Positions 253 through 18,157 are shown, counted from the first letter of the stretch. The stretch: DNA of 32,000 nucleotides from Thermococcus kodakarensis KOD1 (GCF_000009965.1 NC_006624.1:660001-692000), one strand, 5' to 3'. Notes: generated by a model from the sequence alone, not told the origin. Numbers and translations are program-made.

Positions 253-3200
253 ATGAGCGGGATAAGGTGGGCCGAGAGGGAGTACACGGACGAGGAGATT
301 TATTCCATCCTTAGCGAGCCGGTTAGGGAGTGGTTTAAGCGGAAGTTTGGAACATTCACCCCGCCCCAGCGCTACGCCGTCCTTGAAATCCATAAAGGTG
401 AGAACGTTCTCATTTCATCCCCAACGGGTTCTGGAAAGACTCTCTCGGCATTTCTCTCCGCAATAAACGAGCTGATTCTCCTTGGAAAGGAAAGCAAGCT
501 TGAGGATAAGATCTACGTCCTCTACGTCTCACCCCTCCGCGCCCTGAACAATGATATCAAGAGGAACCTGGAGGGTCCGCTGGCGGAGATAAAGGAAGTG
601 GCCAAAGAGCTCGGCTATGAACTGCCTGAGATAAGGGTAGGGATAAGGACGAGCGACACATCGAGCTATGAGAAGAGCAAGATGGTAAAAAAGCCACCTC
701 ACATTCTAATAACAACCCCAGAAAGTCTCGCCATTGCCTTAAACGCTCCCAAATTCAGCGAGAGGCTGAAGACGGTTAAGTACGTCATCATTGACGAGGT
801 TCACGCGCTGGCCGAGAACAAGAGGGGTTCTCACCTCGCGCTGAGCATTGAAAGGCTCCAGGAGATGGCCGAGAACGAGTTTGTGAGAATCGGCTTGAGC
901 GCAACTATTCACCCGCTTGAGGAAGTCGCCAAGTTCGTTTTCGGCTTCAACGACGATGGAACTCCAAGGCCGGGCCTCATAGTGGATGTATCCTTCGCCA
1001 AGCAGACTGAGATAAAAGTTGAAAGTGTTGTGGAAGACCTCATTTACACCGATGCCGGAACGCTCAGCGACGCCCTCTACAACCGCTTGGCGGAACTCAT
1101 AAGGGAGCACAGGACGACGCTCATCTTCACCAACACGAGGAGCGGCGCCGAGAGGGTGGCCTTCAACCTTAAGAAGCGCTTTCCCGAGTTTGAGGGTCTG
1201 ATAGAGGCCCATCACTCTTCCCTGTCGAGAGAGGTTCGCCTGGATGTTGAGGAGAAGCTGAAGAGGGGAGAGCTGAAGGCTGTTGTATGCGTCTCCGGGG
1301 ATTCAAAAATCCTGACTGGGAAGGGGCCCGTCGAAATAGGGCGTTTGAACTCAAACATGATTGCAGGTATTTGGAGATTCCAAACTGAGCTTGTCAGGTT
1401 CGAAGAGCCCCACAGGGTAGAATACAGGAGAGAGGGAGTCAAGATAAGAACGCGGTTGGGATTCGAGATAAAGGCGACAAAGGAGCACAAGTTCCTAACC
1501 GTTGATGAAAATGGAGAGCTGAGATGGGTTGAGGCTTGGAAACTCAAGGAAGGGAACTGGGTTGGGGTCGTGAGGAGACTACCGAGTCCGAACGTAAAGG
1601 TCTCGATCTTGGACTTACTGCCCCCGAACGCATACCTTAAGCTCAAGGGGGAATTTTTGAGGGAGTTAAAGCTTTCAATACAGGCAAAATTCGGCTCAAT
1701 ACGGACCTATGCTAAGAAAAAGAGGTGGAGCGAATCTTACTTAGTAAAACAGCTTAACGGTGTCTATCCATTCCGGTGGGAGCGGCTGAGTGCCGTTTTA
1801 AAAGACCTTGACCTTAGAATGACAGAAAACGATGTTGAGAGGATAACTTCAGATAAAGGAAAATACTCGCTTCCCATTGAGTTCACACCAAGTATGGCAA
1901 GACTACTTGGCTTCTGGATGGCAGACGGCTCGTGGAAGGGGGGCACGCTAACTCTATTCTCGTCTGACAGGAAAATGCTTGAGAAGTACAAAGAACTGTG
2001 CAAAGAAGAATTTGGAGTGGTTGGAAGAATAAGGATGCTGAACGAGAGTACTTACTCCCTGGAAATTTCTTTCAACCTTCTTCCAGCCATCTTTAAGAAT
2101 CTAACAGGAAACACTGAACGGAAGTCAAAGCTTGGAACTTTTCCCAGTATTATCTATTCGCTACCTGAAGAGCATAAGAGGGAGTTCCTGGCCGGCTACT
2201 TTGATGGGGACGGCTTTCTTGAGGTGAAGGGTGGAAGGGTTTATTCCGCTGGATTTTCGACGTTCAATAAGAGATTCGCCGAGGGCATACGGGACATCCT
2301 GCTTCAGTTGGGAATAGTCTCCTCAATAAGGGCCAGAGAATACGACGAAGTTCAAAAGTTTAAGGGAAGGGTAATCCCCAAGAAAGGGGCCTCTTACACA
2401 GTCTCCGTTCTAGGTGGAGAATACCTGAAGAGGTTCTTCGATGCTGTTCGCCCGTGGAGGTCAGATTATGAAGGATGGGAAGGTATGTACAATGAGGGGT
2501 ACTCGAACTCCGATGTCGTACCCAACCTTGGAAAGCGCTTGAGGAGCATACGTGAGAGGCTTGGAATAAGTGCATACCGTATGAGCAAAATGGGCTTCTA
2601 CAACCCCGTAAGGGTTGAACTGGGGGAGAGGGAGATAAGCAGGAGAAACTTGAGGCTCCTTGTAGAATTCTACGAAAGAGTGGCGAAAGAGAAGAGAGTT
2701 GAAGATGTTCTTGAGGAGCTATCTTATTTGAGGGAACTGGCCGAAGGGGATGTGTTCTTTGACAGGATAACCTCGGTTGAGCCCGCCTACATTGATGTTG
2801 CCTACGGCATCATAAACTCTGAAACTGAAAACTACATTGTTGAAGGATTTATCTCGAAAAACAGCTCGACAAGCTTGGAGTTAGGTATTGACATCGGTAC
2901 AATTGATCTCGTCGTTCTCATCGGCTCACCAAAGAGCGTTAACAGGGCCCTGCAGAGAATCGGTAGGGCCGGCCACAGGCTCCACGATGTGAGCAAGGGC
3001 GTTATCCTTGCCCTCGACAGGGACGACCTCGTTGAGGTTACTGTTTTAGCTCACAACGCGAGGAATAGAAGATTAGACAGGGTCAGAATCCCGAAAAACC
3101 CGCTCGACGTTCTCGTCCAGCACATAGTCGGTATGGCCCTCTACAAGGTCTGGGAGGTCGAAGAGGCCTACCGCCTGGTTAGAAGGGCCTATCCCTTCCA

Positions 3201-4425
3201 CGAGCTTCCCTTTGAGGACTTCATGAGCGTCCTGAAGTACCTTTCAGGTGGCTATGAGGGACTTGAAGACAGAAAGGTCTACGCCAAGATATGGCTCGAG
3301 GACGGGAAGTTCGGAAGGCGCGGCAAGATGACGAGGGCTATCTACTACATGAACGTTGGCACTATTCCAGACGAGGCAAAGATAAGGGTTTACACGATGG
3401 ACAAGCAGATGATTGGAACCGTTGAGGAGGAGTTCGCCGAGAGGCTGATGCCAGGGGACATCTTTGTCTTGGCTGGAAGAACCTACGAGTTCATCAAGAG
3501 CAGGGGAAACAAGATATACGTCGTCCCGCGCGAGGGGGCGAAGCCCACCATCCCAGCCTGGTTCTCCGAGATGCTCCCGCTGAGCTTTGATTTAGCCCTC
3601 GACGTTCAGCGCTTCAGGAGGGAAGTGAAGGAGCTGTTGAACAAAAAACGGGCCAAGTCCCTTCTCATGAGGAAGTACGGAATAGACGAGAGGGCAGCCA
3701 AGGCCATAATAGCCTACTTCCGCGAGCAGGAGAGGTATTCAACAGTCCCCGACGACGAGACGGTTCTCGTTGAGGAGGTCGAGAAGGAGAACACTTACGA
3801 GTACTTCTTCCACACGCTGATAGGAAGACGGGCCAACGACGCCCTCAGCAGGGCCTTCGCCTACGCCGTCGGAAGGCGGAAGGGGGTAAACGTCGGCATA
3901 GCCCTCAACGACAACGGCTTCCTCCTTAGAGTTCCGAAAGAAGCCAGGCTGAGCGAGGCTGAAATCAGGGAACTCTTCCAGCTGGAAGACCTGAGGGAGA
4001 TTCTCAAGAGGGCTCTCGACAACACGGAGCTTTTGAAGAGGCGCTTCAGGCACGTGGCGAACAGGGGCTTCCTGATCTTGAGGAGGTATGTGGGGGGGAG
4101 CAAGCGCCTCGGCAGACAGCAGGTCATAGCGGTTTCGCTCCTCAAAGTCCTCAAGGAGCACTACCCTGACTTCCCGCTCCTGAAGGAGGTTTACAGGGAG
4201 ATCATGGAGGACAAGATGGACGTTGAGAACGCCGAACTGTTCCTGAGCTGGGTGCGGGAGGGGAAGATCAAGGTCGTCTTCGAGAGGAACGAGCTTCCGA
4301 GTCCGTTCGCCTTCAACCTCGAGGCGATAGGTTCGAGCGATGTCGTTCTGATGGAGGACAGGAGGGAGATGATAAAGGCCCTCTACCGGAAGATAATGGC
4401 CCTAATAGGGGAGAACGCCACCTGA
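253..4425 (+). CDS. lhr: Lhr-type SF2 (DEAD/DEAH-box) helicase, interrupted by an intein
   Basis: 1390-aa ORF. Motif I is SPTGSGKT, motif II is IIDEVHAL, and SAT is present. Motif V ([16 protein letters not shown]) is split by a 525-aa insert. Motif VI is QRIGRAGHR, and a long Lhr-like C-terminal region follows. Removing the insert leaves 865 aa, a typical Lhr-core size. Confidence 0.93.
1288..2862 (+). mobile_element. intein (525 aa) with a LAGLIDADG homing-endonuclease domain, inserted in helicase motif V
   Basis: It starts with Cys (CVSGDSKIL) at codon 346 and has block B TxxH (ATKEHKF). Two LAGLIDADG motifs are present: [11 protein letters not shown] (about 1903-1935) and [12 protein letters not shown] (about 2185-2220). 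It ends ...EGFISKN, followed by the +1 Ser of [12 protein letters not shown]. Excision restores [15 protein letters not shown], the same length as the bacterial Lhr motif AVVATSSLELGID. Confidence 0.9.
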
Positions 4426-7830: not shown

Positions 7831-9495
7831 ATGGTGGTGGAAATGGCCTGGAACGACTGGATTGTGAAGCACGCGAAGGCGCTCGTTGTGCTCTGGATCC
7901 TGGTGGTGATCCTCACGGCACCATTTGCAGCAAAGCTGAGCGACCTCACAAACTACAGCACCGACCAGTTCCTGCCGAAGGACGTTGAGTCGGTCAAGAC
8001 CATGGACACACTGGAGAAGGAGTTCCCGAGCTTCACCACGAGTGAGAACCAGACTTACATGATCATACACGGAATCGACGTTAACGACCCAAAAACGAGG
8101 GATGCCTACGAGAGGTTTAAGGTTGAGGCCAAGCCCTACGGCGACAACTTCACCTCGTACTACGATGCGCTCGATATTCTCCAGAATGAATCTTACAATA
8201 TAACTCTGAACATAACAAAGACAGCCGCTAACTTGAGCGGAATACTCTACGATTCTGCCGTAAACGGGAGCGACACATACAGGATGCTCCTCCTCGGTAT
8301 TGAAAACTTGACAAACCAAGTGAGGCTCCTTAACGAGACCCTCCCAGAGCTGGCCGATGCCTATCTCAAGCTTGAGACCAACCTGACTATCCTGTACAAC
8401 CAAACTCTCGAGCTCAAGGGAGCGCTCAATGAAACTGATATGGCTTACGTTCAGCTCCACCAGAATTTGACCAAAGCCAGCACACAGCTGAAGGAGCTGA
8501 ACTCAACCATAGCCATGCTGAACATTAAGCTTTACAACCTCAGCGAGTCTTATGCTAAGGCCTACCTTGGGGCCATGGGAGTTTATGAAGCCCTGTCAGC
8601 CAAGACGAACGCATATCAGACCTGCAACCTCGACCCACAGACGGCTCAGGCCGTTGCCGCTCAGCTCGGCGTTCCCGTTGAGTTCGTCTATGCGGTCTTC
8701 AACGCGACGTATTCCGCTTATCACACCTACGGACCGAGCGCAATAACGGATGAACTCCTAGCCAACGTTACAGGCGGGATAATTTCAAATACCCTCACCT
8801 ATTCGCTTGAGAAGAGCCTCGTTAAGGCGTACTCCTACGCCTTCTATTCCGGAGTCATTGCCTTTGACAGGACACACGGAAGCAACTACACTCTATTGGA
8901 AAGTGGTGAGAACGCTGAAGCTGCAGTCATTGAGATAGCTGAAAACGCCCTTCAGGGCACTCCAGAGGTCGTTGCAAGGGCCGGCGGAACCTACGCCGTC
9001 CCTGGATTCGGAGAGGTTTCCGCAAAGGTGCTGGCAAAGGTTCTTAACGTTGCAGTAGGACTGGGAAGAAACCCGACAGCGGGGGCCGTTGAAGATGCCA
9101 CAGTTGAGGTTGCTAAGGCCATCCTGGATGGAAGTCCTCTGCTATCGCTCCCTAACGCCGACTACGTCCTAAAAACCCTCCTCGTGAGTGGCCCGACGAA
9201 GGAACTTGAGGAGAGCATCCTCGCCAATGCGCTGGCCGAAAAGCTCTCTGAAGACCAGAGGAAGATGGCCGAGCCGGTAGCTAAAACAGTCACAACCTTC
9301 GACCCAATGGCTGAGGGAGTACTCTCCCAGAACTCCAGCGCCCTGAAAGAGGCAACCGTTTCCCTCCTAAGCGAGATATTGAGGGAGAAGGGTGTTGAAC
9401 TTCCGAATGACGTTCTGGCAAAGGTCTACGACTCAAACGGCAACGTCGGGCCTATAGCCAAAGAGATACTCGTCAAAGAGACCGCAAGGCAGTGA
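7831..9495 (+). CDS. MMPL/RND-superfamily exporter, 5' fragment (TM1 plus a giant extracellular loop), ending at an in-frame TGA
   Basis: It has an N-terminal TM (AKALVVLWILVVILTAPFAAKL) followed by about 500 aa of soluble, helical sequence rich in N-x-S/T. It contains no further TM segments. The frame continues open beyond the TGA at 9493-9495 into the next ORF. Confidence 0.8.
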   Translation: MVVEMAWNDWIVKHAKALVVLWILVVILTAPFAAKLSDLTNYSTDQFLPKDVESVKTMDTLEKEFPSFTTSENQTYMIIHGIDVNDPKTRDAYERFKVEAKPYGDNFTSYYDALDILQNESYNITLNITKTAANLSGILYDSAVNGSDTYRMLLLGIENLTNQVRLLNETLPELADAYLKLETNLTILYNQTLELKGALNETDMAYVQLHQNLTKASTQLKELNSTIAMLNIKLYNLSESYAKAYLGAMGVYEALSAKTNAYQTCNLDPQTAQAVAAQLGVPVEFVYAVFNATYSAYHTYGPSAITDELLANVTGGIISNTLTYSLEKSLVKAYSYAFYSGVIAFDRTHGSNYTLLESGENAEAAVIEIAENALQGTPEVVARAGGTYAVPGFGEVSAKVLAKVLNVAVGLGRNPTAGAVEDATVEVAKAILDGSPLLSLPNADYVLKTLLVSGPTKELEESILANALAEKLSEDQRKMAEPVAKTVTTFDPMAEGVLSQNSSALKEATVSLLSEILREKGVELPNDVLAKVYDSNGNVGPIAKEILVKETARQ

Positions 9496-9741: not shown

Positions 9742-11925
9742 GTGAAAGACGCCCTCAGAGAGGTTCTCCTGGCGGTCGCCGAGAACTATCCAATGAGCGA
9801 AACCGAAATTGAAGAGCTGACGAAGGAGAAAGTGGCTGAGCTCGTTGAAGAATTCATGAAAGACACCGAAAGCAAACTCGGAATGAGGATTGACCCGGCT
9901 AAACTCGCAGAGATAGCGTTCAAATTCAAAGACAACCCAGAAGGGATGGACAGGGAAGACGTTGCACCCGTCGAGAAGGACGTCTACACAGCCCTCTACA
10001 ACAAGGCCAAACTCTACATCAACATGCTCAAGAGCGACGACAACAGGACTATGCTGGTTATCTTCGTACCCAAGGCTCTCAAAGGGGTTAACGACCTCGA
10101 AAAGCAGAGCAAGTTCCAGTACGAGAACTCGATAAAGGCCAAGGAGGTCGCCCTGAAGGAGTTCGGAAAGCTCTCGCCTTCTGTTGAGGTATATGTAACG
10201 GGAACTCCGATCCAGACCTACGAGGCAATCAAGTACGGAAAGGAGGACAACGACAAGACCACCAAGTTCAGCATCGCAGGAGCGTTCATAGTCCTCCTCA
10301 TTCTTATGGGAGTGGCCTTTCTGGCGACTCTACTCCCTTTCACTGGCGTCGCAACGGCCACACTCACGGCCCTTGGAATCCTCTACCTCCTGGCAAAGGG
10401 TGACATACTGGATGTCGGCAGCTGGGCGCAGATGCTCACCGTAACGACCGCTCTCGGCCTTGGAATTGACTACTCGACCTACTACCTCCACAGGTTTAGG
10501 GAATACCTCGCTGAGGGCTACGACCACAACAAGGCCGCGAGCGAGGCCCTCAAGAGGGCAAAGGACGCCGTTCTGGCGAGCGCTTCAACCGACATCATAG
10601 CCTTCGCCAGCTTCGTCCTTGCCTACGAGTTCCCGATATTCAAGACAATGGGTATCATAGCCCCTCTCGCGGTGATAGTCGTCCTCCTGGCGAGCTTAAC
10701 CTTCATCCCGTCAATAACCGTTCTCATCGGTGACAAGCCGATCTTCTGGTGGCCAAGACACATCGAGCACCACCTTGAGAACATCGACCTCCACGAGAGA
10801 AGCAGGATAGCGGAGTGGGCCGTGAAGCACGCCAAAGTCGTAACAATTATAGCCCTCCTCATAGCGGTTCCCGCTGCTTACAACTTCGTAAACTTCAATG
10901 GAACCCATGACATCAAGCTATTCATCCCGAAGGACAGCGAGACCTATCACTTCCTCCAGCTCAGCGAGGACACCGTTGGAGCGGGAGTTACCTCCCCGAC
11001 CTATGTCGTCATCGACCTTGGGCATAAGGTAAGCGACTCTGATCTGGCGAGGATAAACGAGCTGGTTGACAGGATATCAAAGGTCAGCGGCGTCAGGTAC
11101 GTCTACACCATCACCCAGCCGTTCGGAGAGAGAATTGACAACGCGACCCTGGATGAGCTCACGAAGTTCGAGGGAGACCGCTACATCTCAAAGGACAGGC
11201 ACAAGGTCCTCATTCAGGTGACGGGTGAGTACGGAGCAACCGACGACCGCTCGAAGGACATGGTTAGGGAGATTAGGAGCATCGTTGAGGACGAGAAGGA
11301 CTCGAGAAAAATAGCTGACGGAATGGTCGGAGGAAACACCGCCTTGGCCCTTGACCTCAGCAACCTCATCAACGACGTCTTCTGGCACAGGATATTCCCT
11401 GTGGCGCTGCTCCTGATGTTCCTGTCGCTAATCCCGACGCTCAAGGGACTTCCAGCGGTCATAACGACCATGGGTACAATAGCGGCAGGCGTGCTCCTCA
11501 GCATCGGTGTCTCCAGCTGGCTCTTCGAGAAGGTCTTTGGACAGCAGGTCATGTGGTTCCTGCCCATGCTGGTCTTCATAGTGCTCATGGGAGTCGGCAT
11601 TGACTACAACAGCTTCTATCTAGTTAAGGCCAGGGACGAGTTCGAGCGCAGGAAGCCCGAGGAGGCCCTGATAGTCGCCGCTGGAACCATGGATACCCTC
11701 GTCGTTGGCCTTGCGGCAGTGCTCGCGGCCACCTACGGCTCCCTGATGACAGGGGCGACGTGGGGCATAAGGGAGATAGGCTTTGCCCTCGCCCTCGGAG
11801 TGCTCCTTACGGCGACGGCAGTGGTCTACTTCATCGGGCCAGCAACCATGGCCCTCTTCGGAGAGAAGGCCTGGTGGCCGCTGTTCAATAACAGGGAAAA
11901 AGTGTCTCCGAGGAGAAGAAAGTAA
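9742..11925 (+). CDS. MMPL/RND-superfamily exporter, 3' fragment (two 5-6-TM bundles), in the same frame as the upstream ORF
   Basis: Two MMPL-type bundles are present, with GLGIDYSTYYLHRFRE and GVGIDYNSFYLVKARDE. The track start is a GTG at 9742, but the frame is open without any stop from 9496, directly after the TGA of the upstream ORF. No ATG or RBS is evident at 9742. Confidence 0.85.
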   Translation: MKDALREVLLAVAENYPMSETEIEELTKEKVAELVEEFMKDTESKLGMRIDPAKLAEIAFKFKDNPEGMDREDVAPVEKDVYTALYNKAKLYINMLKSDDNRTMLVIFVPKALKGVNDLEKQSKFQYENSIKAKEVALKEFGKLSPSVEVYVTGTPIQTYEAIKYGKEDNDKTTKFSIAGAFIVLLILMGVAFLATLLPFTGVATATLTALGILYLLAKGDILDVGSWAQMLTVTTALGLGIDYSTYYLHRFREYLAEGYDHNKAASEALKRAKDAVLASASTDIIAFASFVLAYEFPIFKTMGIIAPLAVIVVLLASLTFIPSITVLIGDKPIFWWPRHIEHHLENIDLHERSRIAEWAVKHAKVVTIIALLIAVPAAYNFVNFNGTHDIKLFIPKDSETYHFLQLSEDTVGAGVTSPTYVVIDLGHKVSDSDLARINELVDRISKVSGVRYVYTITQPFGERIDNATLDELTKFEGDRYISKDRHKVLIQVTGEYGATDDRSKDMVREIRSIVEDEKDSRKIADGMVGGNTALALDLSNLINDVFWHRIFPVALLLMFLSLIPTLKGLPAVITTMGTIAAGVLLSIGVSSWLFEKVFGQQVMWFLPMLVFIVLMGVGIDYNSFYLVKARDEFERRKPEEALIVAAGTMDTLVVGLAAVLAATYGSLMTGATWGIREIGFALALGVLLTATAVVYFIGPATMALFGEKAWWPLFNNREKVSPRRRK

Positions 11926-12000
11926 TTTGATCGTTATGATTTTTATTTATCTTTTTGGTTCTTTATAAAATACTCTTCTCGTAACTATATATCAAAAGTA

Positions 12001-12014
12001 AAATTTTTAAATAG
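12001..12014 (+). promoter_or_regulatory. TATA-like box for the OLD-family gene
   Basis: AAATTTTTAAATAG lies about 32-45 nt upstream of the ATG at 12046. GGTGA at 12036-12040 is placed as an RBS. Confidence 0.4.
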
Positions 12015-12045
12015 AGACCCATGGATATACCTACTGGTGAAGTTT

Positions 12046-13992
12046 ATGAGATTATTAAAGTTAATCGGATTAAAAATTAGGAACTATAGGTCCATTAAAG
12101 AGCTTCCTTTAAACGATGAATACTTAATGGTTGAAAATTTTGTCACGATAATCGGAAAAAATGATGCTGGGAAATCAAATATTTTGAACGCAATTAGGAT
12201 AGTTCTAGAAGAGGATAAAGTAACCAAAGATGATTTTCATAAGGGTACCAATGAAAACATTGAAATTTCATTGATATTTGATGCCACAGAAAATACGGAG
12301 ATTATGCATATCATAAACCATGATTCTAATGAAACTGCAAAGGGACTGGGGGCATTTTTCAGTAGATATAACAACAAGAGTTCTACAAATACTAAAATAA
12401 AAATAAAAAAGATTTTTGAAAAAGATAAACTTAATTCACGAAATTATAAAGGAGATACTATTGTAGAATATTTTGATGAGGATAAGAACAAATGGGTTAA
12501 AATTAAAGATAAAAAACTCATTAATACCATATTAAATGATCTTCCAGAGGTCATTTACATTCCGGCTATTAGAGATGCAATTGCAGAAACAACTCAAAAA
12601 TCTGGTTTTTTAATGTCAAAGCTTCTTTTGCCACTTTTAGAAAAACAAAATAAAAGCAATTCTAATGAAGAAAATGGAAAAGAAAAGCAGAGAAGTATAA
12701 CAGAGCTAAAGAAAGAATTGCAAAATCTGATTAGCAGAGAGTCTAAGAAGCTCACTAAAAAAATTTTGAAGGAATTAACTGTATTCAATAGTTCAATTGA
12801 AGAGATAAAAATTGAGCCTAATAAAGTTCAAATTAACTTTAGTCCTAAAATACAAATCAAAGATAAATACTTGCCAGATAGTGTTCCTCTCGAGCAAAGG
12901 GGAGCTGGATTGAGAAGTGAATTTCTCTTGGCAATGTTCAGAATATGGGCAGAAGTCGGTGCAGGAAAAGGTTATATACTTCTATTTGAAGAGCCAGAGC
13001 TATATTTACATCCCGAAGCTCAGAAAAAAATGTTCTCTGCATTAAAACGCATAAGCAATGAGGCTCAAGTTTTGATAACAACCCATTCAACAATATTTGT
13101 GGACAGAAGTGATTTAAAGTCAATATGGCTTATACGAAGAGAGAATGGGGAGACAAAGATTACAACATTCGAAAAGCCTAAGGTATTATCTGAGATCCTT
13201 GAAGAAATTGGGGCAACTCCCAGTGATCTGTTTTTATCCAATGGGGTCATATACGTCGAAGGAAAAACAGAGATTAAGGTATTTAGTAAAATTGCAAAGG
13301 CTATATGCCCCAAGTGGGAAGAGTACAATATTTCAATTGTTAGTTTAGGAGGAGGCAACATCCGAGATTTATCCGAAACGCTGTTATTCAATGGTCTTGC
13401 TTCACTAAATCCGAATGGAGTTGTTGTAATTGATTCAGATGGAGAGCAAGAAGATAAGAAGAGTGGAGGTTGTAAACCAAAACCTGAAAAGCTTAAGATA
13501 AAAGAAAACTTCGAGCAATATGGGCTCACGGTTCATATCCTTCAAAGAAGAGAGATTGAAAACTACATTCCTCTTAATATTCTTGAAAAGTATTTCATAG
13601 AGGGATACATTAAATCGAAATATATAACCAAAATTGGGGATCAGCAGCTTAAAGTCAACAAAATTAAGAGTAAAGAGTATTTCAAAAAACAATATCTCAA
13701 ATATTTCAAAAGAATGGAGTCTAATTTGAGAGAGATAGAGAGAAAACAAAACATGATTAGGGCAATAAATAGAGTATCACCCTGTGAGGACATCCTTAAG
13801 AAGATTGACGAGCTCTTATATACTAAAAAACATAAAAAATGGGATCGCAAAAAAGCCGAAATAACTCCCAAATTATTTGAAATGATGATCAAAGAGAAAA
13901 AAGCTCCACTTGAGTTTAAAGAGATACTAGAAGAGGCAATAAGAAAATGCGGATTTGAGCCAGAATTTAGCGACGAATTTGAGTACATTTAA
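12046..13992 (+). CDS. OLD-family ATP-dependent nuclease (ABC-type ATPase + Toprim), solitary
   Basis: The N-terminus MRLLKLIGLKIRNYRSIKEL is typical of AAA_15/OLD proteins. Walker A is GKNDAGKS (12154-12177), followed by a K/E-rich helical insert. Walker B is ILLFEEPELYLHP (about 12976-13014) and the H-loop is LITTHS. The Toprim Glu is in VIYVEGKTE (13258-13260), DxD is in VVVIDSDGE (13432-13440), and REIENYIP follows. A Lys-rich tail of about 150 aa has no family I recognise. Confidence 0.85.
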   Translation: MRLLKLIGLKIRNYRSIKELPLNDEYLMVENFVTIIGKNDAGKSNILNAIRIVLEEDKVTKDDFHKGTNENIEISLIFDATENTEIMHIINHDSNETAKGLGAFFSRYNNKSSTNTKIKIKKIFEKDKLNSRNYKGDTIVEYFDEDKNKWVKIKDKKLINTILNDLPEVIYIPAIRDAIAETTQKSGFLMSKLLLPLLEKQNKSNSNEENGKEKQRSITELKKELQNLISRESKKLTKKILKELTVFNSSIEEIKIEPNKVQINFSPKIQIKDKYLPDSVPLEQRGAGLRSEFLLAMFRIWAEVGAGKGYILLFEEPELYLHPEAQKKMFSALKRISNEAQVLITTHSTIFVDRSDLKSIWLIRRENGETKITTFEKPKVLSEILEEIGATPSDLFLSNGVIYVEGKTEIKVFSKIAKAICPKWEEYNISIVSLGGGNIRDLSETLLFNGLASLNPNGVVVIDSDGEQEDKKSGGCKPKPEKLKIKENFEQYGLTVHILQRREIENYIPLNILEKYFIEGYIKSKYITKIGDQQLKVNKIKSKEYFKKQYLKYFKRMESNLREIERKQNMIRAINRVSPCEDILKKIDELLYTKKHKKWDRKKAEITPKLFEMMIKEKKAPLEFKEILEEAIRKCGFEPEFSDEFEYI

Positions 13993-14039
13993 TGTTTTTA
14001 GTTCAATATCCTTTTAAACGCTGAATTTTAGCTTTTAAC

Positions 14040-14918
14040 ATGAACATCTACGAGATGCTCGCGCTCATAGCATTCGGATACGTTCTCAAGCGTCTGTTTA
14101 AGTCTGAGAAGCCCTTTGACTACATCCGAATCCTCACAAACGACATTCTTCTGGCCTTCTTCGTCTTCGGCAACGTCGCGAGCAAGGATTTGGGATACTT
14201 ACTCAGCATAAAGACGGTTTTCATCTACGTCTTTCTCGTAATAGGCATAAGTCTTGGCTCCTCTTACCTCTACGGCAGGTTCGTTCTCAAAAACGACCCC
14301 TGGGCTGGTGCACTCATGGTTCTCTCGGTTTACCCGAACACCGCGGCCCTAGGCTTCCCGATAGCGAGCCTCTTCTTGGACGACATAACCCCCGCAATTC
14401 TCTACTCAACAACCAACAGCCTCATCGTAATCCCGATAGTGACGTTCATAGCGGCCCACTACTCCAGCGGCGGTGCTTCACTAAGGAGGAGCATCGAAAA
14501 GGCCCTGAAGTTCCCGCCGACAGTCGCCAACCTGCTTGCCCTCGCCCTTGTGATAGCTGGAATCCGCCTTCCGGGCTGGATCATCGAGCCCATTAAGACG
14601 ATCGGCTGGTGGAGCATCCCGCTCCTGATAATCTACTTCGGCTCGCGGATAACCCTCAGCAGGTTCGAGCTCAGGAAGTTCCTCGAAGTGGGGGCCTTTA
14701 GGATAGCGATTCCATTCATCTTCGTCTTCCTCACCCTCAGGAACGCCAGCCCAGAGGTTTTCTACTCGGTTCTGGTCGAGGCCAGCATGCCGCCGGCGAT
14801 AGCCGCCAATGCGATTCTTGCACAGTACCAGCTGAAGGCTGAGGAGGCAATAAGCGTTACCTTTGTCCTTACTCTCATCGTTATCGGCCTCTTCATGGCC
14901 TTAAAGGCTCTTCTCTGA
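14040..14918 (+). CDS. AEC-family (auxin efflux carrier-like) membrane transporter
   Basis: 292 aa and polytopic. The start MNIYEMLALIAFGYVLKR... and the two-repeat hydrophobic architecture are typical of the membrane-transport (AEC) family. The TATA-like box CCTTTTAAAC is at 14010-14019. Confidence 0.8.
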   Translation: MNIYEMLALIAFGYVLKRLFKSEKPFDYIRILTNDILLAFFVFGNVASKDLGYLLSIKTVFIYVFLVIGISLGSSYLYGRFVLKNDPWAGALMVLSVYPNTAALGFPIASLFLDDITPAILYSTTNSLIVIPIVTFIAAHYSSGGASLRRSIEKALKFPPTVANLLALALVIAGIRLPGWIIEPIKTIGWWSIPLLIIYFGSRITLSRFELRKFLEVGAFRIAIPFIFVFLTLRNASPEVFYSVLVEASMPPAIAANAILAQYQLKAEEAISVTFVLTLIVIGLFMALKALL

Positions 14919-15977: not shown

Positions 15978-16044
15978 TTGGTCTTTCCAAATTTTTATCA
16001 CATTTGCCGAAAAGCTTAAATTGATTCTCAACAGAATCATTCTC

Positions 16045-17301
16045 ATGAGAATTATTCCCAGAAGAATTGAAATGAAAACCCTAAGATATCCAGGCTGGAA
16101 GATGCTCTACGGCCGCAGAAAAACAGGGAAGAGCTTTATAGCAAGCAGGTTCTTAGATCACGACCTCTATTACTTTGTACAGCGAGATGGAGCCATCCTT
16201 GAGAGGAGGAGTGGTGCAAGGTTATCATATCAGGAACTGCTGAAAGAGCTATCCAAGAACCTTGGGGAGAAAACAATCGTTATTGATGAGTTCCATAGAC
16301 TCCCTGAGGACTTCCTCGATTTCCTGCACGCAAACGCTGGGAGAAGTGAAAAGGATCTGGTTCTCCTCACGTCAACGCTCTGGCTCTCACTGCGGCTTCT
16401 CTCCAAAAAGGAAAGTCCCTTACTTGGGGTAGTGCTGCCGATAAAAATCGGACTTATTGACGAGAGAGAAGTTATCATCGAGCTTTCAAAGGAAGTGAGT
16501 GGAAAAGAGCTTGTGGAAGCTTCCACGTATCTTAGAGAACCTATGCTTGTTCCCCTTTACAAGCCACCACTGAGGGAGTTCATGGCTCAATACCTGTACT
16601 CATCAGGGCCGGTCGTTGAAGATTTAATCGGCGAGGCTTTCACTGAAGAAGAAATCCTGTTTTCTGAGGTTTATCGAGCGATTCTCCACGCAGTAGCGGA
16701 TGGAAAGTCCAAGAGCGGCGAGATAGCGAGCTACCTGGTGTCCCAGGGACTTCTTGACTCGCCCTCAAGCATCCAGAAGTACCTCAAAGTTCTCTCCACA
16801 ATGGACATCATACGGAAAGTTCCCATCTTCCGAAAACGCAGGAGGTTCAGTTACTCCATAGCATCCCCCCTGCTGGATTTGCACTTCTACCTCAGCTCCA
16901 AGTACGCGTACACCGAGCTGGAAACCCCACTTGAGTTCATAAGGAGTGCCGTTAATGAGAAAGTCCCGAGACACGTTGAAAAATACATCGAGAGCCTGCT
17001 GGGAAAGGTATACGGGCTCAGACCAGTTAGAATCGAAGAACCTGACCTTGAAGTGGACATAGCCCTTCAGGGCTTCAAGCGTCTTGAGCTAGTGGGGGAA
17101 GTGAAATGGAAGAGCAGGGTAAAGAGAGAGGAAGTTTGGAAAATCGAGGAAAAGCTTTCAAGGTTCAACTGTAGAAAAGTGCTCGTCGTTCCCGATGAAA
17201 GCGTCCTTGAGTCAGAGCCAAAAACCGTTGAAGTGCTCACCCCAGAGGATCTCTTGACTCTCGCCCAGAAAAGCCTGAGAAAGGAGCTCGGGGAAGAATG
17301 A
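16045..17301 (+). CDS. AAA+ ATPase of the archaeal ATPase / DUF234 family
   Basis: The P-loop YGRRKTGKS lies near the N-terminus, Walker B is TIVIDEFHRL, and the C-terminal winged-helix/DUF234-like region is ...EIASYL...KYLKVL..MDIIRK. The start is uncertain between ATG 16045 and ATG 16072; the track's 16021 is a TTG. Confidence 0.78.
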   Translation: MRIIPRRIEMKTLRYPGWKMLYGRRKTGKSFIASRFLDHDLYYFVQRDGAILERRSGARLSYQELLKELSKNLGEKTIVIDEFHRLPEDFLDFLHANAGRSEKDLVLLTSTLWLSLRLLSKKESPLLGVVLPIKIGLIDEREVIIELSKEVSGKELVEASTYLREPMLVPLYKPPLREFMAQYLYSSGPVVEDLIGEAFTEEEILFSEVYRAILHAVADGKSKSGEIASYLVSQGLLDSPSSIQKYLKVLSTMDIIRKVPIFRKRRRFSYSIASPLLDLHFYLSSKYAYTELETPLEFIRSAVNEKVPRHVEKYIESLLGKVYGLRPVRIEEPDLEVDIALQGFKRLELVGEVKWKSRVKREEVWKIEEKLSRFNCRKVLVVPDESVLESEPKTVEVLTPEDLLTLAQKSLRKELGEE

Positions 17302-17308
17302 AGCTTTC

Positions 17309-18157
17309 TCACTCCCCCATCAGCTTCTCTATCAGCTTTGCCTTCTCCTGGGCCTTGCGGAGATGTTCCACTGTTACCTTGGTGTATATCTGGGTAGTTG
17401 AGAGGTTCGAGTGGCCGAGAAGCTCCTGTATGGCCCTTATATCCACCCCTTCCTCAAGTAGGTGAGTCGCGAAGCTGTGGCGGAGCTTGTGTGGCGTTAC
17501 CTCAACCCCAGCTTTCTGGCCGTAGCGCTTGAGGAGGTACCACACGTTCCTTGTTGAGAGCTTATCCTTCCTCCTTCTTCTGTCCTCGACGAGGAGGTAT
17601 TCGCTCTCATCGGAGCGGCTCTCGAGGTAGGCCCTTATCTCGTCGGCGAGGTACTTCGGGATTGGCACGACCCTGTCCTTCGCTCCCTTTCCGCCCCTTA
17701 CCACTATTAGCCCTCTGTCGAGGTCAACGTCGTCCTTTTTGAGGTTGCACAGCTCGCTAACGCGCAATCCAGCGCCGTAGAGGAGAAGAACAATGAGCCT
17801 GTCTCTCTTCCTTGTTGGCGGTATAACAGAGAGAAGCCGCTTAACCTCCTCCCTAGTGAGTGCTTTCGGCAGGCTCCTCGGGACTTTGGGAGGCTTCAGC
17901 CTCTCGGCTTCATCGTCAAGGCCCTCAAACCGAAAGTAGGCCCTCAACGCCTGGACGACGAGGTTGAGGCTCCTGTTAGAGTAGCCGTTTTTCCTCAGAT
18001 GGGCAAGAAATCGGAGGGCGGAGTGGGCGTTCAGATCGCCGCCCCACTCAAGGTATCGCCTAACGTAGTAAGTGTACATCCTGATGGTATGGGGGCTTTT
18101 ACCCTCAAGGTCCAGATAGGTCTCGAACTCCTCAATGACCTCGTTCGGCTCACTCAT
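17309..18157 (-). CDS. xerA: tyrosine recombinase XerA
   Basis: 282 aa. The N-terminal SAM-like domain is [28 protein letters not shown]. The catalytic residues sit in GLRVSEL (Arg), [12 protein letters not shown] (His-x-x-Arg), LLGHS and the nucleophile Tyr in TQIYTKV. Confidence 0.92.

What the first reader, a model, noticed from the sequence alone, without database searches (positions are those of the whole stretch)
11926..14039. Low-G+C single-gene island encoding a solitary archaeal OLD-family nuclease with an unassigned C-terminal module
Composition changes sharply between the MMPL stop (11925) and the AEC-transporter promoter (about 14010). Spot counts give 18/60 G+C at 12061-12120, against 38/60 at 11821-11880. 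The island holds exactly one gene.

That gene has a complete ABC-type ATPase: Walker A at 12154-12177, Walker B at about 12976-13014, and an LITTHS H-loop. It is fused to a Toprim domain with the catalytic Glu at 13258-13260, DxD at 13432-13440 and the ENY motif. This is the OLD (overcoming lysogenization defect) architecture used by P2 Old, Gabija GajA and retron or PARIS-type effectors.

This copy has no UvrD-like helicase, reverse transcriptase or other partner. It has no integrase or flanking repeat that I can see. It also carries about 150 extra Lys-rich helical residues after the Toprim domain that match nothing I recognise.

A horizontally acquired, stand-alone OLD nuclease in a hyperthermophilic archaeon is a plausible uncharacterised anti-virus or anti-plasmid module.
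Basis: partly seen in the sequence, partly recalled or inferred. Interest (0 to 1): 0.75.

Follow-up and report, generated by a model that had tools for sequence, protein, structure and literature searches.

The report
Solitary AT-rich OLD nuclease gene TK0773
This is TK0773 of Thermococcus kodakarensis, a lone, intact, AT-rich gene for an OLD-family ATPase-nuclease inserted between two core transporter genes; it is probably an anti-virus or anti-plasmid nuclease, but the gene, its odd composition and its likely defence role are already in the literature, so it is mostly ordinary.

Summary
Window 11926-14039 has 31.9% G+C in a roughly 52% G+C genome. It holds one gene, 12046-13992 (648 aa), whose GC3 of 0.30 is 7 SD below 22 neighbouring ORFs. 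No partner gene, integrase, tRNA or convincing flanking repeat is present.

The interpretation needs three corrections.

1. This is TK0773 of T. kodakarensis KOD1, already annotated as an OLD endonuclease. A 2025 preprint already describes it as an AT-rich, probably horizontally acquired, defence-related gene (HICR4). Its 71%-identical relative is already listed in the uncharacterised OLD clade U1.
2. The "unassigned" C-terminus is mostly family-conserved. It comprises a helical domain that best resembles Class 2 OLD C-terminal regions by fold, plus a 52-aa Lys-rich helical hairpin found only in two Thermococcus proteins.
3. The insertion is not recent or private. Thermococcus sp. 21S9 has the gene at the same junction, and it is as diverged at synonymous sites as its flanks (dS about 1.5, dN/dS about 0.12). 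Three other Thermococcus genomes have an empty site.

One point is unexplained: the gene has kept its low GC3 despite saturating divergence. Function is inferred, not tested.

The parts
11926..11961 (+). Native spacer after the MMPL stop codon, with oligo-T tracts (a likely archaeal terminator). The left edge of the insertion lies at about 11950-11962.
   Evidence: The T-tract after the MMPL stop is shared with L007, L019 and L011, and sequence similarity is lost beyond it.
11950..14001 (+). Inserted low-G+C segment of about 2.05 kb (approximate limits). It holds a promoter, one gene and a terminator, and nothing else.
   Evidence: G+C is 0.27-0.37 against 0.52-0.57 in the flanks. In L007 and L019 the MMPL and AEC genes are 86-90 nt apart with no such segment. 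Homology to relatives resumes at about 14002.
12001..12016 (+). TATA-box-like element AAAATTTTTAAATAG, about 30 nt upstream of the start codon. This is the presumed promoter of the inserted gene.
   Evidence: The sequence was read directly. The block is conserved upstream of the 21S9 ortholog. Promoter function is inferred, not tested.
12046..13992 (+). TK0773 coding sequence: a 648-aa OLD-family ATPase-nuclease of clade U1. A GGTGA ribosome-binding motif lies at 12036-12040.
   Evidence: 100% identical to P0001, 'predicted ATP-dependent endonuclease, OLD family [T. kodakarensis KOD1]'. Supported by Pfam, PADLOC and NCBIfam hits and by fold hits to 6P74, GajA and retron Eco8.
12154..12177 (+). 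Walker A / P-loop GKNDAGKS (aa 37-44).
   Evidence: G37, N39, G42 and K43 are invariant in 66 homologs.
12577..12786 (+). Helical insertion in the ATPase domain (aa about 178-247). It sits at the position of the OLD dimerisation domain.
   Evidence: The AF2 model has helices at 178-183, 186-203 and 218-247 between ATPase strands. Ts OLD has its dimerisation domain inserted in the ATPase fold (PMC7049728). The assignment is by analogy.
12898..12999 (+). ABC signature-like RGAGLRS (aa 285-291) and Walker B / D-loop LLFEEPE (aa 312-318).
   Evidence: G288 and E316 are invariant, and G286, E315, P317 and E318 nearly invariant, in 66 homologs.
13078..13089 (+). H-loop TTHS (aa 345-348).
   Evidence: T346, H347 and S348 are nearly invariant.
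13240..13566 (+). Toprim nuclease core (aa about 399-507). Metal-A ligands are E405 (13258-13260) and D463/D465 (13432-13440). Metal-B candidates are E409, E503 and E505 (13552-13563 covers E503-N506).
   Evidence: Pfam OLD-like_TOPRIM covers aa 399-468. V404, E405, G406 and D463 are invariant and D465 nearly invariant. The spacings E+4, DxD and x-E match Ts OLD E377/D381, D431/D433 and S478/E480 (PMC7049728). The mapping is by alignment position and is inferred.
13597..13752 (+). Lineage-specific 52-aa Lys-rich helical hairpin (aa 518-569). It is inserted at the start of the C-terminal helical domain.
   Evidence: Present only in T. kodakarensis and Thermococcus sp. 21S9. Absent from P0003 (50% identical) and all homologs at about 38% identity. 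Modelled as two long helices, 510-537 and 543-572, with pLDDT 62-86.
13753..13989 (+). Family-conserved C-terminal helices (aa 570-648), the conserved part of the helical domain that follows Toprim.
   Evidence: Conserved across the 12-member clade alignment: D582 nearly invariant, M614 invariant. pLDDT is 90-98. The C-terminal-region model aligns over 261-263 columns with Class 2 OLD C-terminal regions, but only 128 columns with Class 1 Ts OLD.
13993..14001 (+). T5 tract (13995-13999) just after the stop codon, a likely terminator. This is the right edge of the insertion.
   Evidence: The sequence was read directly, together with the junction alignment.
14002..14039 (+). Native AEC-transporter promoter region, including the conserved block CCTTTTAAACGCTGA (14010-14024).
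   Evidence: The block is invariant in T. kodakarensis, 21S9, L007, L019 and L011.

Best explanation
**What it is.** The region is a roughly 2.05-kb single-gene insertion in the spacer between a core MMPL transporter gene and a core AEC transporter gene of Thermococcus kodakarensis. It encodes TK0773, a stand-alone OLD-family enzyme of the uncharacterised clade U1.

**What is shown.**
- The protein has a complete Rad50/SMC-like ABC ATPase head with a helical insertion at the position of the OLD dimerisation domain.
- It has a Toprim nuclease with both sets of metal ligands.
- It has a C-terminal helical domain that is closer in fold to Class 2 (GajA-type) enzymes than to the Class 1 Thermus enzyme.
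- It has no helicase or other partner.
- It is under purifying selection.
- The same insertion, at the same junction, is present in Thermococcus sp. 21S9 and absent from three other Thermococcus genomes.

**What is inferred.** By analogy with the OLD enzymes studied so far, the protein probably forms a dimer or higher oligomer through the ATPase insertion. Nucleotide binding or hydrolysis in the ABC head would gate the Toprim site, which nicks or cleaves DNA by two-metal catalysis. The Lys-rich hairpin and helical domain probably contribute DNA contacts. The most likely biological role is single-gene defence against viruses or plasmids, possibly of the abortive-infection type.
For: **Identity**
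- Pfam AAA_15 1.3e-36, AAA_21 and OLD-like_TOPRIM, all above cut-offs.
- PADLOC Old 8.9e-53, plus many GajA models.
- PDB sequence and profile hits: Ts OLD 5.7e-24 and GajA 9e-16.
- Fold hits: 6P74 1.4e-19, GajA 5e-19 and retron Eco8, from a confident model (pLDDT 87, pTM 0.84).
- Catalytic residues are invariant across 66 homologs.

**Solitary**
- The neighbours are transporters and a peptidase. The only helicases in the window are core Lhr and XPD genes more than 7 kb away.
- Homologs in other hosts have no conserved neighbour.

**Insertion**
- Empty sites in L007 and L019.
- The same junctions in 21S9.

**Functional constraint**
- dN/dS is about 0.12 over dS 1.47.

**Defence-like behaviour**
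- Patchy distribution.
- Toxin-antitoxin genes lie close to the homolog in L025 and L029.
- Clade U1 has mixed bacterial and archaeal membership, which PMC12796447 reads as horizontal spread typical of defence genes.
- Single-gene Class 1 OLDs defend bacteria (PMC12392090).
- bioRxiv 10.64898/2025.12.08.692931 lists TK0773 as potentially defence-related.
Against: - No functional data exist for TK0773 or any U1 member.
- The one archaeal OLD protein studied, Cran1, did not appear to be involved in virus defence and acts in the cell cycle (PMC12796447).
- The insertion is old and stably kept at one chromosomal site, without the turnover or clustering with other defence genes often seen in defence islands.
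- The helical-domain assignment rests on modest fold scores (E 6e-4 to 1e-2, TM 0.4-0.55).
- Sequence profiles do not align past the DxD motif to any solved structure.
- A basic catalytic residue equivalent to Ts R487 or Bp K562 could not be pinned down.
Confidence: 0.6

Rival explanations
1. A domesticated cellular function rather than defence. Like Cran1 of Sulfolobales (class 5), TK0773 would act on the host chromosome in cell-cycle progression, chromatin handling or Rad50-like repair.
For: - Cran1 is an active OLD ATPase-nickase that did not appear to be involved in virus defence and is needed for cell-cycle progression (PMC12796447).
- TK0773 has been kept at one chromosomal site through dS of about 1.5 under purifying selection.
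- The ATPase head resembles Rad50/SMC heads.
Against: - Cran1's clade U11 is vertically inherited in all Sulfolobales and has a conserved membrane-protein partner.
- TK0773's clade is U1, of mixed bacterial and archaeal membership.
- The gene is absent from L007, L019 and L011, has very few close homologs and has no conserved neighbour.
- A housekeeping gene would not be expected to stay a 7-SD compositional outlier.
Confidence: 0.12
2. A selfish or mobile-element-derived gene. It would be a remnant of, or cargo dropped by, a virus or plasmid. It would act in element-versus-element exclusion or as an addiction-like nuclease, as old does for phage P2, rather than being a host-adapted defence gene.
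For: - The founding OLD gene is phage-borne and excludes lambda (PMC7049728 and PMC12392090).
- OLD relatives occur on viral contigs and on many plasmids, including haloarchaeal megaplasmids.
- U1 genes are AT-rich outliers in every host checked.
Against: - No integrase, attachment repeat, tRNA target or other element gene accompanies the island.
- Viral and plasmid relatives are only 23-36% identical, and none is from Thermococcales.
- The segment contains only a promoter, one gene and a terminator.
Confidence: 0.15
3. A recent, private horizontal acquisition. On this view the low G+C is simply the un-ameliorated signature of a recent donor.
For: - A sharp compositional step and an empty site in three related genomes.
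- No close homologs outside two or three Thermococcus strains.
Against: - Thermococcus sp. 21S9 carries the ortholog at the same junction with the same composition.
- Its synonymous divergence from TK0773 (dS 1.47, 4-fold identity 0.46) equals that of the flanking core genes (dS 1.22 and 1.32).
- Neutral amelioration over that divergence predicts 4-fold G+C of 0.45-0.58. The observed values are 0.28 and 0.19.
Confidence: 0.1
4. A silenced or decaying xenogene with no current function.
For: - Extreme AT-richness and atypical codon usage.
- The locus needs reverse gyrase to stay double-stranded at 95 C (bioRxiv 10.64898/2025.12.08.692931).
Against: - The 648-codon ORF is intact, every catalytic motif is present, and dN/dS is about 0.12 between two lineages.
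- The promoter-like element is conserved.
Confidence: 0.03

Closest known systems
Class 1 OLD nucleases (phage P2 Old, Thermus scotoductus OLD 6P74, Vibrio cholerae Vc OLD)
   Same: - A single isolated gene.
[quoted passage not shown] - The metal-ligand spacings are the same as in Ts OLD.
   Different: - Ts OLD lacks a C-terminal helical domain (PMC7049728). TK0773 has about 140 residues of helices after the IENY motif, and its C-terminal region aligns with 6P74 over the Toprim core only (128 columns).
- TK0773 has no basic residue at the position of Ts R487 (E505+7).
- The published phylogeny puts its close homologs in a separate clade, U1.
- Identity to Ts OLD is about 17%.
Class 2 OLD nucleases (Gabija GajA; Burkholderia and Xanthomonas OLD C-terminal regions 6NK8, 6NJV)
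   Same: - A Toprim domain followed by a helical domain. The C-terminal-region model's best PDB matches are 6NJV/6NJW/6NJX/6NK8, aligned over its whole length.
- GajA aligns over the full-length model (660-673 columns).
- Several PADLOC GajA models align to about aa 637.
   Different: - There is no UvrD/PcrA/Rep-like (GajB) gene downstream or anywhere nearby, and that gene is the defining feature of the class.
- Fold scores for the C-terminal region are modest (TM 0.4-0.55).
- Sequence profiles align only as far as the DxD motif.
- TK0773 has an extra 52-aa hairpin.
Clade U1 of OLD-family proteins (PMC12796447, Dataset EV1)
   Same: Thermococcus sp. 21S9 WP_167914810 (71% identical, same locus), a T. 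aggregans protein and Archaeoglobales RLI74500 (our P0007, 38%) are all listed as U1, with mixed bacterial and archaeal membership. TK0773 belongs with them by sequence.
   Different: TK0773 itself was not found by name in the held supplement text. U1 has no characterised member, so membership says nothing about mechanism.
Cran1 / class 5 OLD (Sulfolobales clade U11)
   Same: An archaeal OLD ATPase-nuclease with a helical element associated with Toprim. It is an active nickase and ATPase in vitro.
   Different: Cran1's clade is vertically inherited, order-wide and linked to a membrane-protein gene, and it functions in the cell cycle. TK0773 is patchy, solitary and compositionally foreign.
TK1395 (with TK1394), the second OLD homolog of T. 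kodakarensis
   Same: According to bioRxiv 10.64898/2025.12.08.692931 it is also AT-rich, breaks a Thermococcales synteny block and lies in a heat-induced clustering region, HICR6.
   Different: It comes as a gene pair, whereas TK0773 is alone. It lies outside this window and was not examined here.

Membership tests
OLD family (ABC ATPase + Toprim nuclease) | N-terminal ABC-type ATPase with Walker A, signature-like motif, Walker B and H-loop | tested here: met
   AAA_15 1.3e-36 and AAA_21 2.5e-16. The motifs lie at aa 37-44, 285-291, 312-318 and 345-348 and are invariant or nearly invariant in 66 homologs. Fold matches to Rad50/SMC heads and OLD ATPases.
OLD family (ABC ATPase + Toprim nuclease) | C-terminal Toprim domain with catalytic Glu and DxD on the same polypeptide | tested here: met
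   OLD-like_TOPRIM 1.8e-8, above cut-off. E405 and D463 are invariant and D465 nearly invariant.
OLD family (ABC ATPase + Toprim nuclease) | ATPase and metal-dependent nuclease activity | not testable with these tools
   Requires purified protein.
Class 1 OLD | Isolated gene in a variable neighbourhood with no dedicated partner | tested here: met
   It is flanked by MMPL and AEC transporter genes. Homologs have unrelated neighbours.
Class 1 OLD | No helical domain after Toprim and no helical insertion in it, as in Ts OLD (PMC7049728; PMC12796447) | tested here: not met
   About 140 helical residues follow IENY. The C-terminal region matches Class 2 C-terminal regions over its full length, but 6P74 over only 128 columns.
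Class 1 OLD | Falls within the Class 1 clade in the family phylogeny | tested here: inconclusive
   No tree was built here. The published dataset labels the 71% homolog and the 38% Archaeoglobales homolog as U1, not Class 1. By profile score, however, Ts OLD is the nearest solved relative.
Class 2 OLD (Gabija GajA) | [quoted passage not shown] | tested here: not met
   The downstream gene is an AEC/Mem_trans transporter that is syntenic in relatives lacking OLD.
Class 2 OLD (Gabija GajA) | Toprim domain followed by a helical domain that contributes to the active site | tested here: inconclusive
   Fold similarity to 6NJV/6NK8 extends over the whole C-terminal region, but with E 6e-4 to 1e-2 and TM 0.4-0.55. 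There is no sequence-profile alignment beyond DxD. The catalytic Lys equivalent was not identified.
Class 3 OLD (retron Eco8 type) | Adjacent reverse transcriptase and msr/msd non-coding RNA | tested here: not met
   There is no RT gene in the window and no Rfam hit. NCBIfam retron_eff_Eco8 scores 53.6 bits against a cut-off of 250.
Class 4 OLD (PARIS AriA/AriB) | ATPase and Toprim encoded by separate adjacent genes | tested here: not met
   Both domains are in one 648-aa ORF.
Class 5 OLD (Cran1, clade U11) | Vertical, order-wide conservation and an operon with a membrane-protein gene | tested here: not met
   The gene is absent from L007, L019 and L011. Homologs are sparse. The flanking membrane-protein genes are core genes that stay adjacent to each other when OLD is absent.
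Clade U1 (PMC12796447) | Groups with the listed U1 sequences | tested here: met
   71% identity to WP_167914810 (P0122/P0002) and 38% to RLI74500 (P0007), both labelled U1. No phylogeny was recomputed.

The most novel reading that the evidence does not exclude
The AT-richness of this gene may be a maintained property of U1-type stand-alone OLD genes, not a fading donor signature. It has survived saturating synonymous divergence in two Thermococcus lineages, and homologs are low-G+C outliers in every other host examined.

If so, composition itself would matter. One possibility is that it keeps a potentially toxic nuclease silent through chromatin, supercoiling or poor codon usage until infection or stress. 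Another is a self-reinforcing mutational trap: melt-prone DNA at 85-95 C suffers more cytosine deamination and therefore stays AT-rich.

In addition, U1 would be a distinct partner-less OLD class with a Class 2-like C-terminal domain, and the first anti-virus OLD system in archaea.
Probability: 0.15. Interest if true: 0.65.

Novelty: new member of a known kind. Interest (0 to 1): 0.33.

Why it matters
No archaeal OLD protein has been shown to act in defence. The only one studied, Cran1, works in the cell cycle. TK0773 sits in one of the most genetically tractable hyperthermophiles, so it is a practical test case for two questions: whether stand-alone OLD enzymes protect archaea from viruses or plasmids, and whether a Class 2-like C-terminal domain can work without the GajB helicase.

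The locus also offers a clean natural experiment on why foreign AT-rich genes fail to ameliorate in a hyperthermophile. That connects to recent evidence that reverse gyrase protects exactly this locus from melting.

As a discovery, however, it adds little. The gene, its family, its odd composition and its probable role are already published.

Tried and rejected
- **Flanking repeats or attachment sites.** The repeat finder found nothing convincing. My hand-spotted 13/16 repeat, TTTATCTTTTTGGTTC (11946-11961) and TTAATGTTTTTAGTTC (13989-14004), is matched or beaten by 52% of shuffles at k=12 and 12% at k=16. I rejected it as evidence.
- **tRNA target.** There is none near the island. The one tRNA later found, at 26100-26204, is 12 kb away.
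- **XerA-type integrase at 17309-18157.** It belongs to a conserved block, is 3.3 kb away and is separated from the island by three genes. The 2025 preprint uses XerA as a loading control. I rejected it as the island's integrase.
- **L011's 535-nt MMPL-AEC spacer as a decayed OLD remnant.** It has no blastn or tblastx similarity to the island beyond the shared AEC promoter, and its G+C is normal.
- **Rfam scan of the window and L011.** Nothing reached the gathering thresholds.
- **Carriage on Thermococcales viruses or plasmids.** Only distant relatives were found, at 23-36% identity.
- **Exact look-up of P0002.** It failed. The 643-aa form P0122 worked.
- **Sequence-profile assignment of the last 100 or so residues to a solved structure.** It failed: alignments stop after the DxD motif.
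Full report
**1.

The interval 11926-14039 is 31.9% G+C. It is the lowest 2114-nt window in the 32 kb; the lowest window that does not overlap it is 48.3%.

The only credible gene is on the + strand. It is listed from GTG 12037. The database protein starts at ATG 12046, behind a GGTGA motif, ends at 13992 and is 648 aa.

Its G+C is 0.325 and its GC3 is 0.302. The other 22 ORFs of the window average 0.531 (sd 0.028) and 0.686 (sd 0.052), so z is about -7.4 on both measures.

- Walker A GKNDAGKS at aa 37-44;
- Walker B LLFEEPE at aa 312-318;
- H-loop TTHS at aa 345-348;
- Toprim E405;
- D463-x-D465;
- IENY at aa 504-507.

These residues are invariant or nearly so in a 66-sequence alignment.

**2. 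What the protein is**

- Pfam gives AAA_15 (1.3e-36), AAA_21 (2.5e-16) and OLD-like_TOPRIM (1.8e-8), all above their cut-offs.
- PADLOC's best model is Old (8.9e-53), followed by AriA and many GajA models.
- NCBIfam gives only sub-threshold hits to the retron Eco8 effector, MAD3 and PtuA.
- Among solved structures, the nearest by sequence and by clade profile is the Class 1 Thermus scotoductus OLD, 6P74 (1.7e-14 and 5.7e-24). GajA is next, at 9e-16.
- An AlphaFold2 model built on 66 homologs is confident (pLDDT 87.2, pTM 0.84). Its best fold matches are 6P74 (1.4e-19), GajA (5e-19, aligned over about 670 columns) and the retron Eco8 nuclease, followed by Rad50/SMC heads.

The protein is therefore an intact OLD-family ATPase-nuclease.

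**3. The "unassigned C-terminal module"**

A 12-sequence alignment of the closest homologs splits the roughly 142 residues after IENY into two parts.
- Residues 518-569 form a Lys-rich segment. It is present only in T. kodakarensis and Thermococcus sp. 21S9, and absent from the 50%-identical P0003 and from all homologs at about 38% identity.
- Residues 570-648 are conserved in every member. D582 is nearly invariant and M614 is invariant.

In the models, the lineage-specific segment forms most of a long helical hairpin (helices 510-537 and 543-572, pLDDT 62-86). The conserved tail forms three confident helices.

I modelled residues 386-648 separately (pLDDT 89) and searched the PDB with Foldseek.
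- The best matches are the Class 2 OLD C-terminal regions of Xanthomonas (6NJV/6NJW/6NJX; E 6e-4 to 1e-3, 262-263 columns, TM 0.48-0.55 on the target) and Burkholderia (6NK8).
- The Class 1 structure 6P74 aligns over only 128 columns, which is the Toprim core.

Schiltz et al. report that Class 2 enzymes have a helical domain after Toprim and that Ts OLD lacks it (PMC7049728). So the C-terminus is best read as the family's helical domain with a clade-specific hairpin, not as a foreign module.

The caveat is that these fold scores are modest. Sequence profiles of the clade stop aligning to any solved structure just after the DxD motif. The basic residue that completes the active site (Ts R487 or Bp K562) could not be identified either.

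**4. Solitary**

The neighbours are:
- an intein-bearing Lhr helicase (253-4425);
- a GAPDH-like gene;
- a two-ORF MMPL transporter (7831-9495 and 9742-11925);
- the AEC/Mem_trans transporter (14040-14918);
- an M42 peptidase;
- an AAA_14 ATPase;
- a XerA-type recombinase (17309-18157, - strand);
- a Toprim protein;
- XPD (22724-24718).

None is a UvrD-like helicase, a reverse transcriptase or an AriB-like gene next to OLD.

Homologs of the clade in other organisms also have unrelated neighbours:
- toxin-antitoxin-like genes in L025 and L029;
- housekeeping genes in Phorcysia (L028);
- ribonucleotide reductase and ABC-transporter genes in an Archaeoglobales contig (L045).

**5. It is an insertion, and an old one**

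The AEC transporter was used to fetch 18 related Thermococcus loci.
- In L007 and L019 the MMPL and AEC genes are adjacent, separated by 86-90 nt of normal composition, with no OLD gene.
- L011 has a 535-nt spacer with no similarity to the island.

Alignment of the junctions places the insertion limits as follows.
- The left limit is just after the shared oligo-T tract, at about 11950-11962.
- The right limit is between the stop codon (13992) and about 14002, where the conserved AEC promoter region resumes (block CCTTTTAAACGCTGA).

The segment is about 2.05 kb and holds only a promoter-like element, the gene and a T5 tract.

No tRNA, integrase or significant direct repeat flanks it. A 13/16 repeat at the two junctions is not distinguishable from chance in this T-rich sequence.

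The 71%-identical homolog in Thermococcus sp. 21S9 lies at the same place, in the order MMPL, OLD, AEC.
- It shares the upstream TATA-like block and the right junction.
- Its composition is the same: G+C 0.325 and GC3 0.269, against flanks at 0.56-0.57 and 0.78-0.80.

Between the two genomes, synonymous divergence of OLD equals that of its flanks.

| Gene | dS | 4-fold-site identity |
|---|---|---|
| OLD | 1.47 | 0.46 |
| MMPL | 1.22 | 0.46 |
| AEC | 1.32 | 0.43 |

OLD has dN/dS of about 0.12, so the gene is under purifying selection.

The simplest reading is one insertion that predates the split of these two lineages. The current presence/absence pattern does not follow flank similarity: L007 is 75% identical to T. 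kodakarensis in MMPL yet lacks the gene, while 21S9 is 68% identical and has it. That pattern implies either later losses or transfer by homologous recombination through the flanks.

**6. An unexplained feature**

I applied an F81 model calibrated on the flanks' 4-fold sites. An insert that started at 4-fold G+C of 0.10-0.28 at the time of the split should now be at 0.45-0.58. The observed values are 0.28 ± 0.04 (T. kodakarensis) and 0.19 ± 0.035 (21S9).

Homologs are also lower in G+C than their surroundings in all five other contigs checked:

| Locus | Gene G+C | Rest of contig |
|---|---|---|
| L025 | 0.31 | 0.42 |
| L028 | 0.32 | 0.45 |
| L029 | 0.34 | 0.42 |
| L045 | 0.33 | 0.37 |
| L047 | 0.34 | 0.37 |

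There are two possible explanations. Either the AT-richness is actively maintained, or the two Thermococcus copies arrived independently at the same site from an AT-rich pool. I could not decide between them.

**7. What is already known**

- The protein is 100% identical to the T. kodakarensis KOD1 entry "predicted ATP-dependent endonuclease, OLD family".
- A December 2025 preprint (bioRxiv 10.64898/2025.12.08.692931) names TK0773. It lies in HICR4, one of seven large AT-rich regions. These regions are bound by reverse gyrase, melt and recruit RPA in delta-rgy cells at 95 C, and cluster in space.
[quoted passage not shown] They link such regions to horizontal transfer. They also report a second OLD homolog, TK1395, paired with TK1394.
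- The Cran1 paper (PMC12796447) built an OLD phylogeny with eleven uncharacterised clades. Its Dataset EV1 labels the 21S9 protein, a T. aggregans protein and the Archaeoglobales protein RLI74500 (our P0007) as clade U1, of mixed bacterial and archaeal membership.
- That paper also states that no archaeal OLD had been characterised before Cran1. Cran1 is a class 5 enzyme that did not appear to be involved in virus defence and functions in the cell cycle.
- Single-gene Class 1 OLDs do defend bacteria, by abortive infection (P2 Old and Vc OLD; PMC12392090).

**8. Mechanism**

Shown:
- domain content and intact catalytic residues;
- no partner gene;
- purifying selection;
- an accessory, presence/absence distribution.

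Inferred by analogy with characterised OLD enzymes:
- oligomerisation through the helical insertion in the ATPase domain (aa about 178-247);
- gating of the Toprim site by nucleotide binding or hydrolysis in the ABC head;
- two-metal nicking or cleavage of DNA, using E405, D463 and D465 for metal A, and E409, E503 and E505 for metal B;
- DNA contacts from the helical domain and the Lys-rich hairpin.

The most likely role is single-gene defence against viruses or plasmids (confidence about 0.6). The rivals are:
- a Cran1-like cellular role (0.12);
- a selfish or element-derived exclusion gene (0.15);
- a recent private acquisition, which concerns the gene's history only (0.1);
- a silent relic (0.03).

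**9. Verdict**

The finding is real and accurately described, but it concerns an already annotated gene whose composition, family and probable role have been published.

It does not fit Class 1 cleanly, because it has a helical domain after Toprim. It fails the defining test for Class 2, because it has no helicase partner. It belongs to the uncharacterised clade U1.

What this analysis adds:
- the dissection of the C-terminus;
- the insertion limits;
- the shared, old insertion in 21S9, under purifying selection;
- the failure of the gene to ameliorate.

Interest is modest, at 0.33.

Noticed in passing
window 26100-26204 (-) and 25181-26100: An intron-containing tRNA gene (Rfam RF00005, 53.4 bits, E 2.3e-10) was found only with the permissive Rfam search. 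ARAGORN and the gathering-mode scan of the whole window both missed it. Next to it lie about 0.9 kb with no ORF longer than 89 aa in any frame and G+C of 0.38-0.45. This may be a remnant of an integrated element beside a tRNA gene.
   Followed up: partly
window 253-4425 (+): A 1390-aa Lhr-type helicase (DEAD, WH_Lhr and DEAD_assoc domains) is interrupted by an intein with a LAGLIDADG homing-endonuclease domain, at aa about 388-870.
   Followed up: no
window 7831-9495 and 9742-11925 (+); L044 5853-9908: The MMPL transporter is two ORFs (554 and 727 aa, with a 246-nt gap) in T. kodakarensis, but a single 1351-aa ORF in Thermococcus sp. 21S9. The first T. kodakarensis ORF has no Pfam hit.
   Followed up: no
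window 16021-17301 (+); L002 4412-5666: The AAA_14 ATPase gene next to the XerA-type recombinase has a lower GC3 (0.555) than its neighbours. In one public T. kodakarensis assembly (L002) it is split into 295-aa and 140-aa ORFs, which suggests a frameshift variant or a sequencing error.
   Followed up: no
L047 6334-11264 and L048 3335-8154: A more distant OLD-like ATPase (P0016, 28% identical, no Toprim Pfam hit) is preceded by a PLDc_2 nuclease gene and followed by a DNA methylase gene in two independent contigs. This looks like a different, multi-gene system.
   Followed up: no
L044 about 11915-11950: In Thermococcus sp. 21S9 the end of the OLD gene carries a tandem duplication of about 15 nt: GATTATATTCACTGA followed by GATTATATTCACTAG. 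It spans the stop codon.
   Followed up: no
L011 367-901; L015 6877-7283; L017 6865-10686: The MMPL-AEC-M42 block varies in its spacers among Thermococcus genomes. There is a 535-nt ORF-less spacer of normal G+C in L011, about 400 nt between AEC and M42 in L015, and about 3.8 kb between them in L017. These intergenic sites may be recurrent insertion points.
   Followed up: partly
L025, L028, L029, L045, L047 (OLD homolog genes): OLD homologs in other hosts, archaeal and bacterial, are each lower in G+C than the rest of their contig. Gene G+C is 0.31-0.34 with GC3 0.23-0.29, against 0.37-0.45 for the surroundings. L047 carries the more distant P0016-type homolog.
   Followed up: partly
L008, L009, L010 (AEC homologs at 82-86% identity): Several Thermococcus MAG loci carry an AEC transporter 82-86% identical to the T. 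kodakarensis one, but with no MMPL or M42 match in 6 kb of flank. Gene order around this transporter is therefore not conserved across the genus.
   Followed up: no
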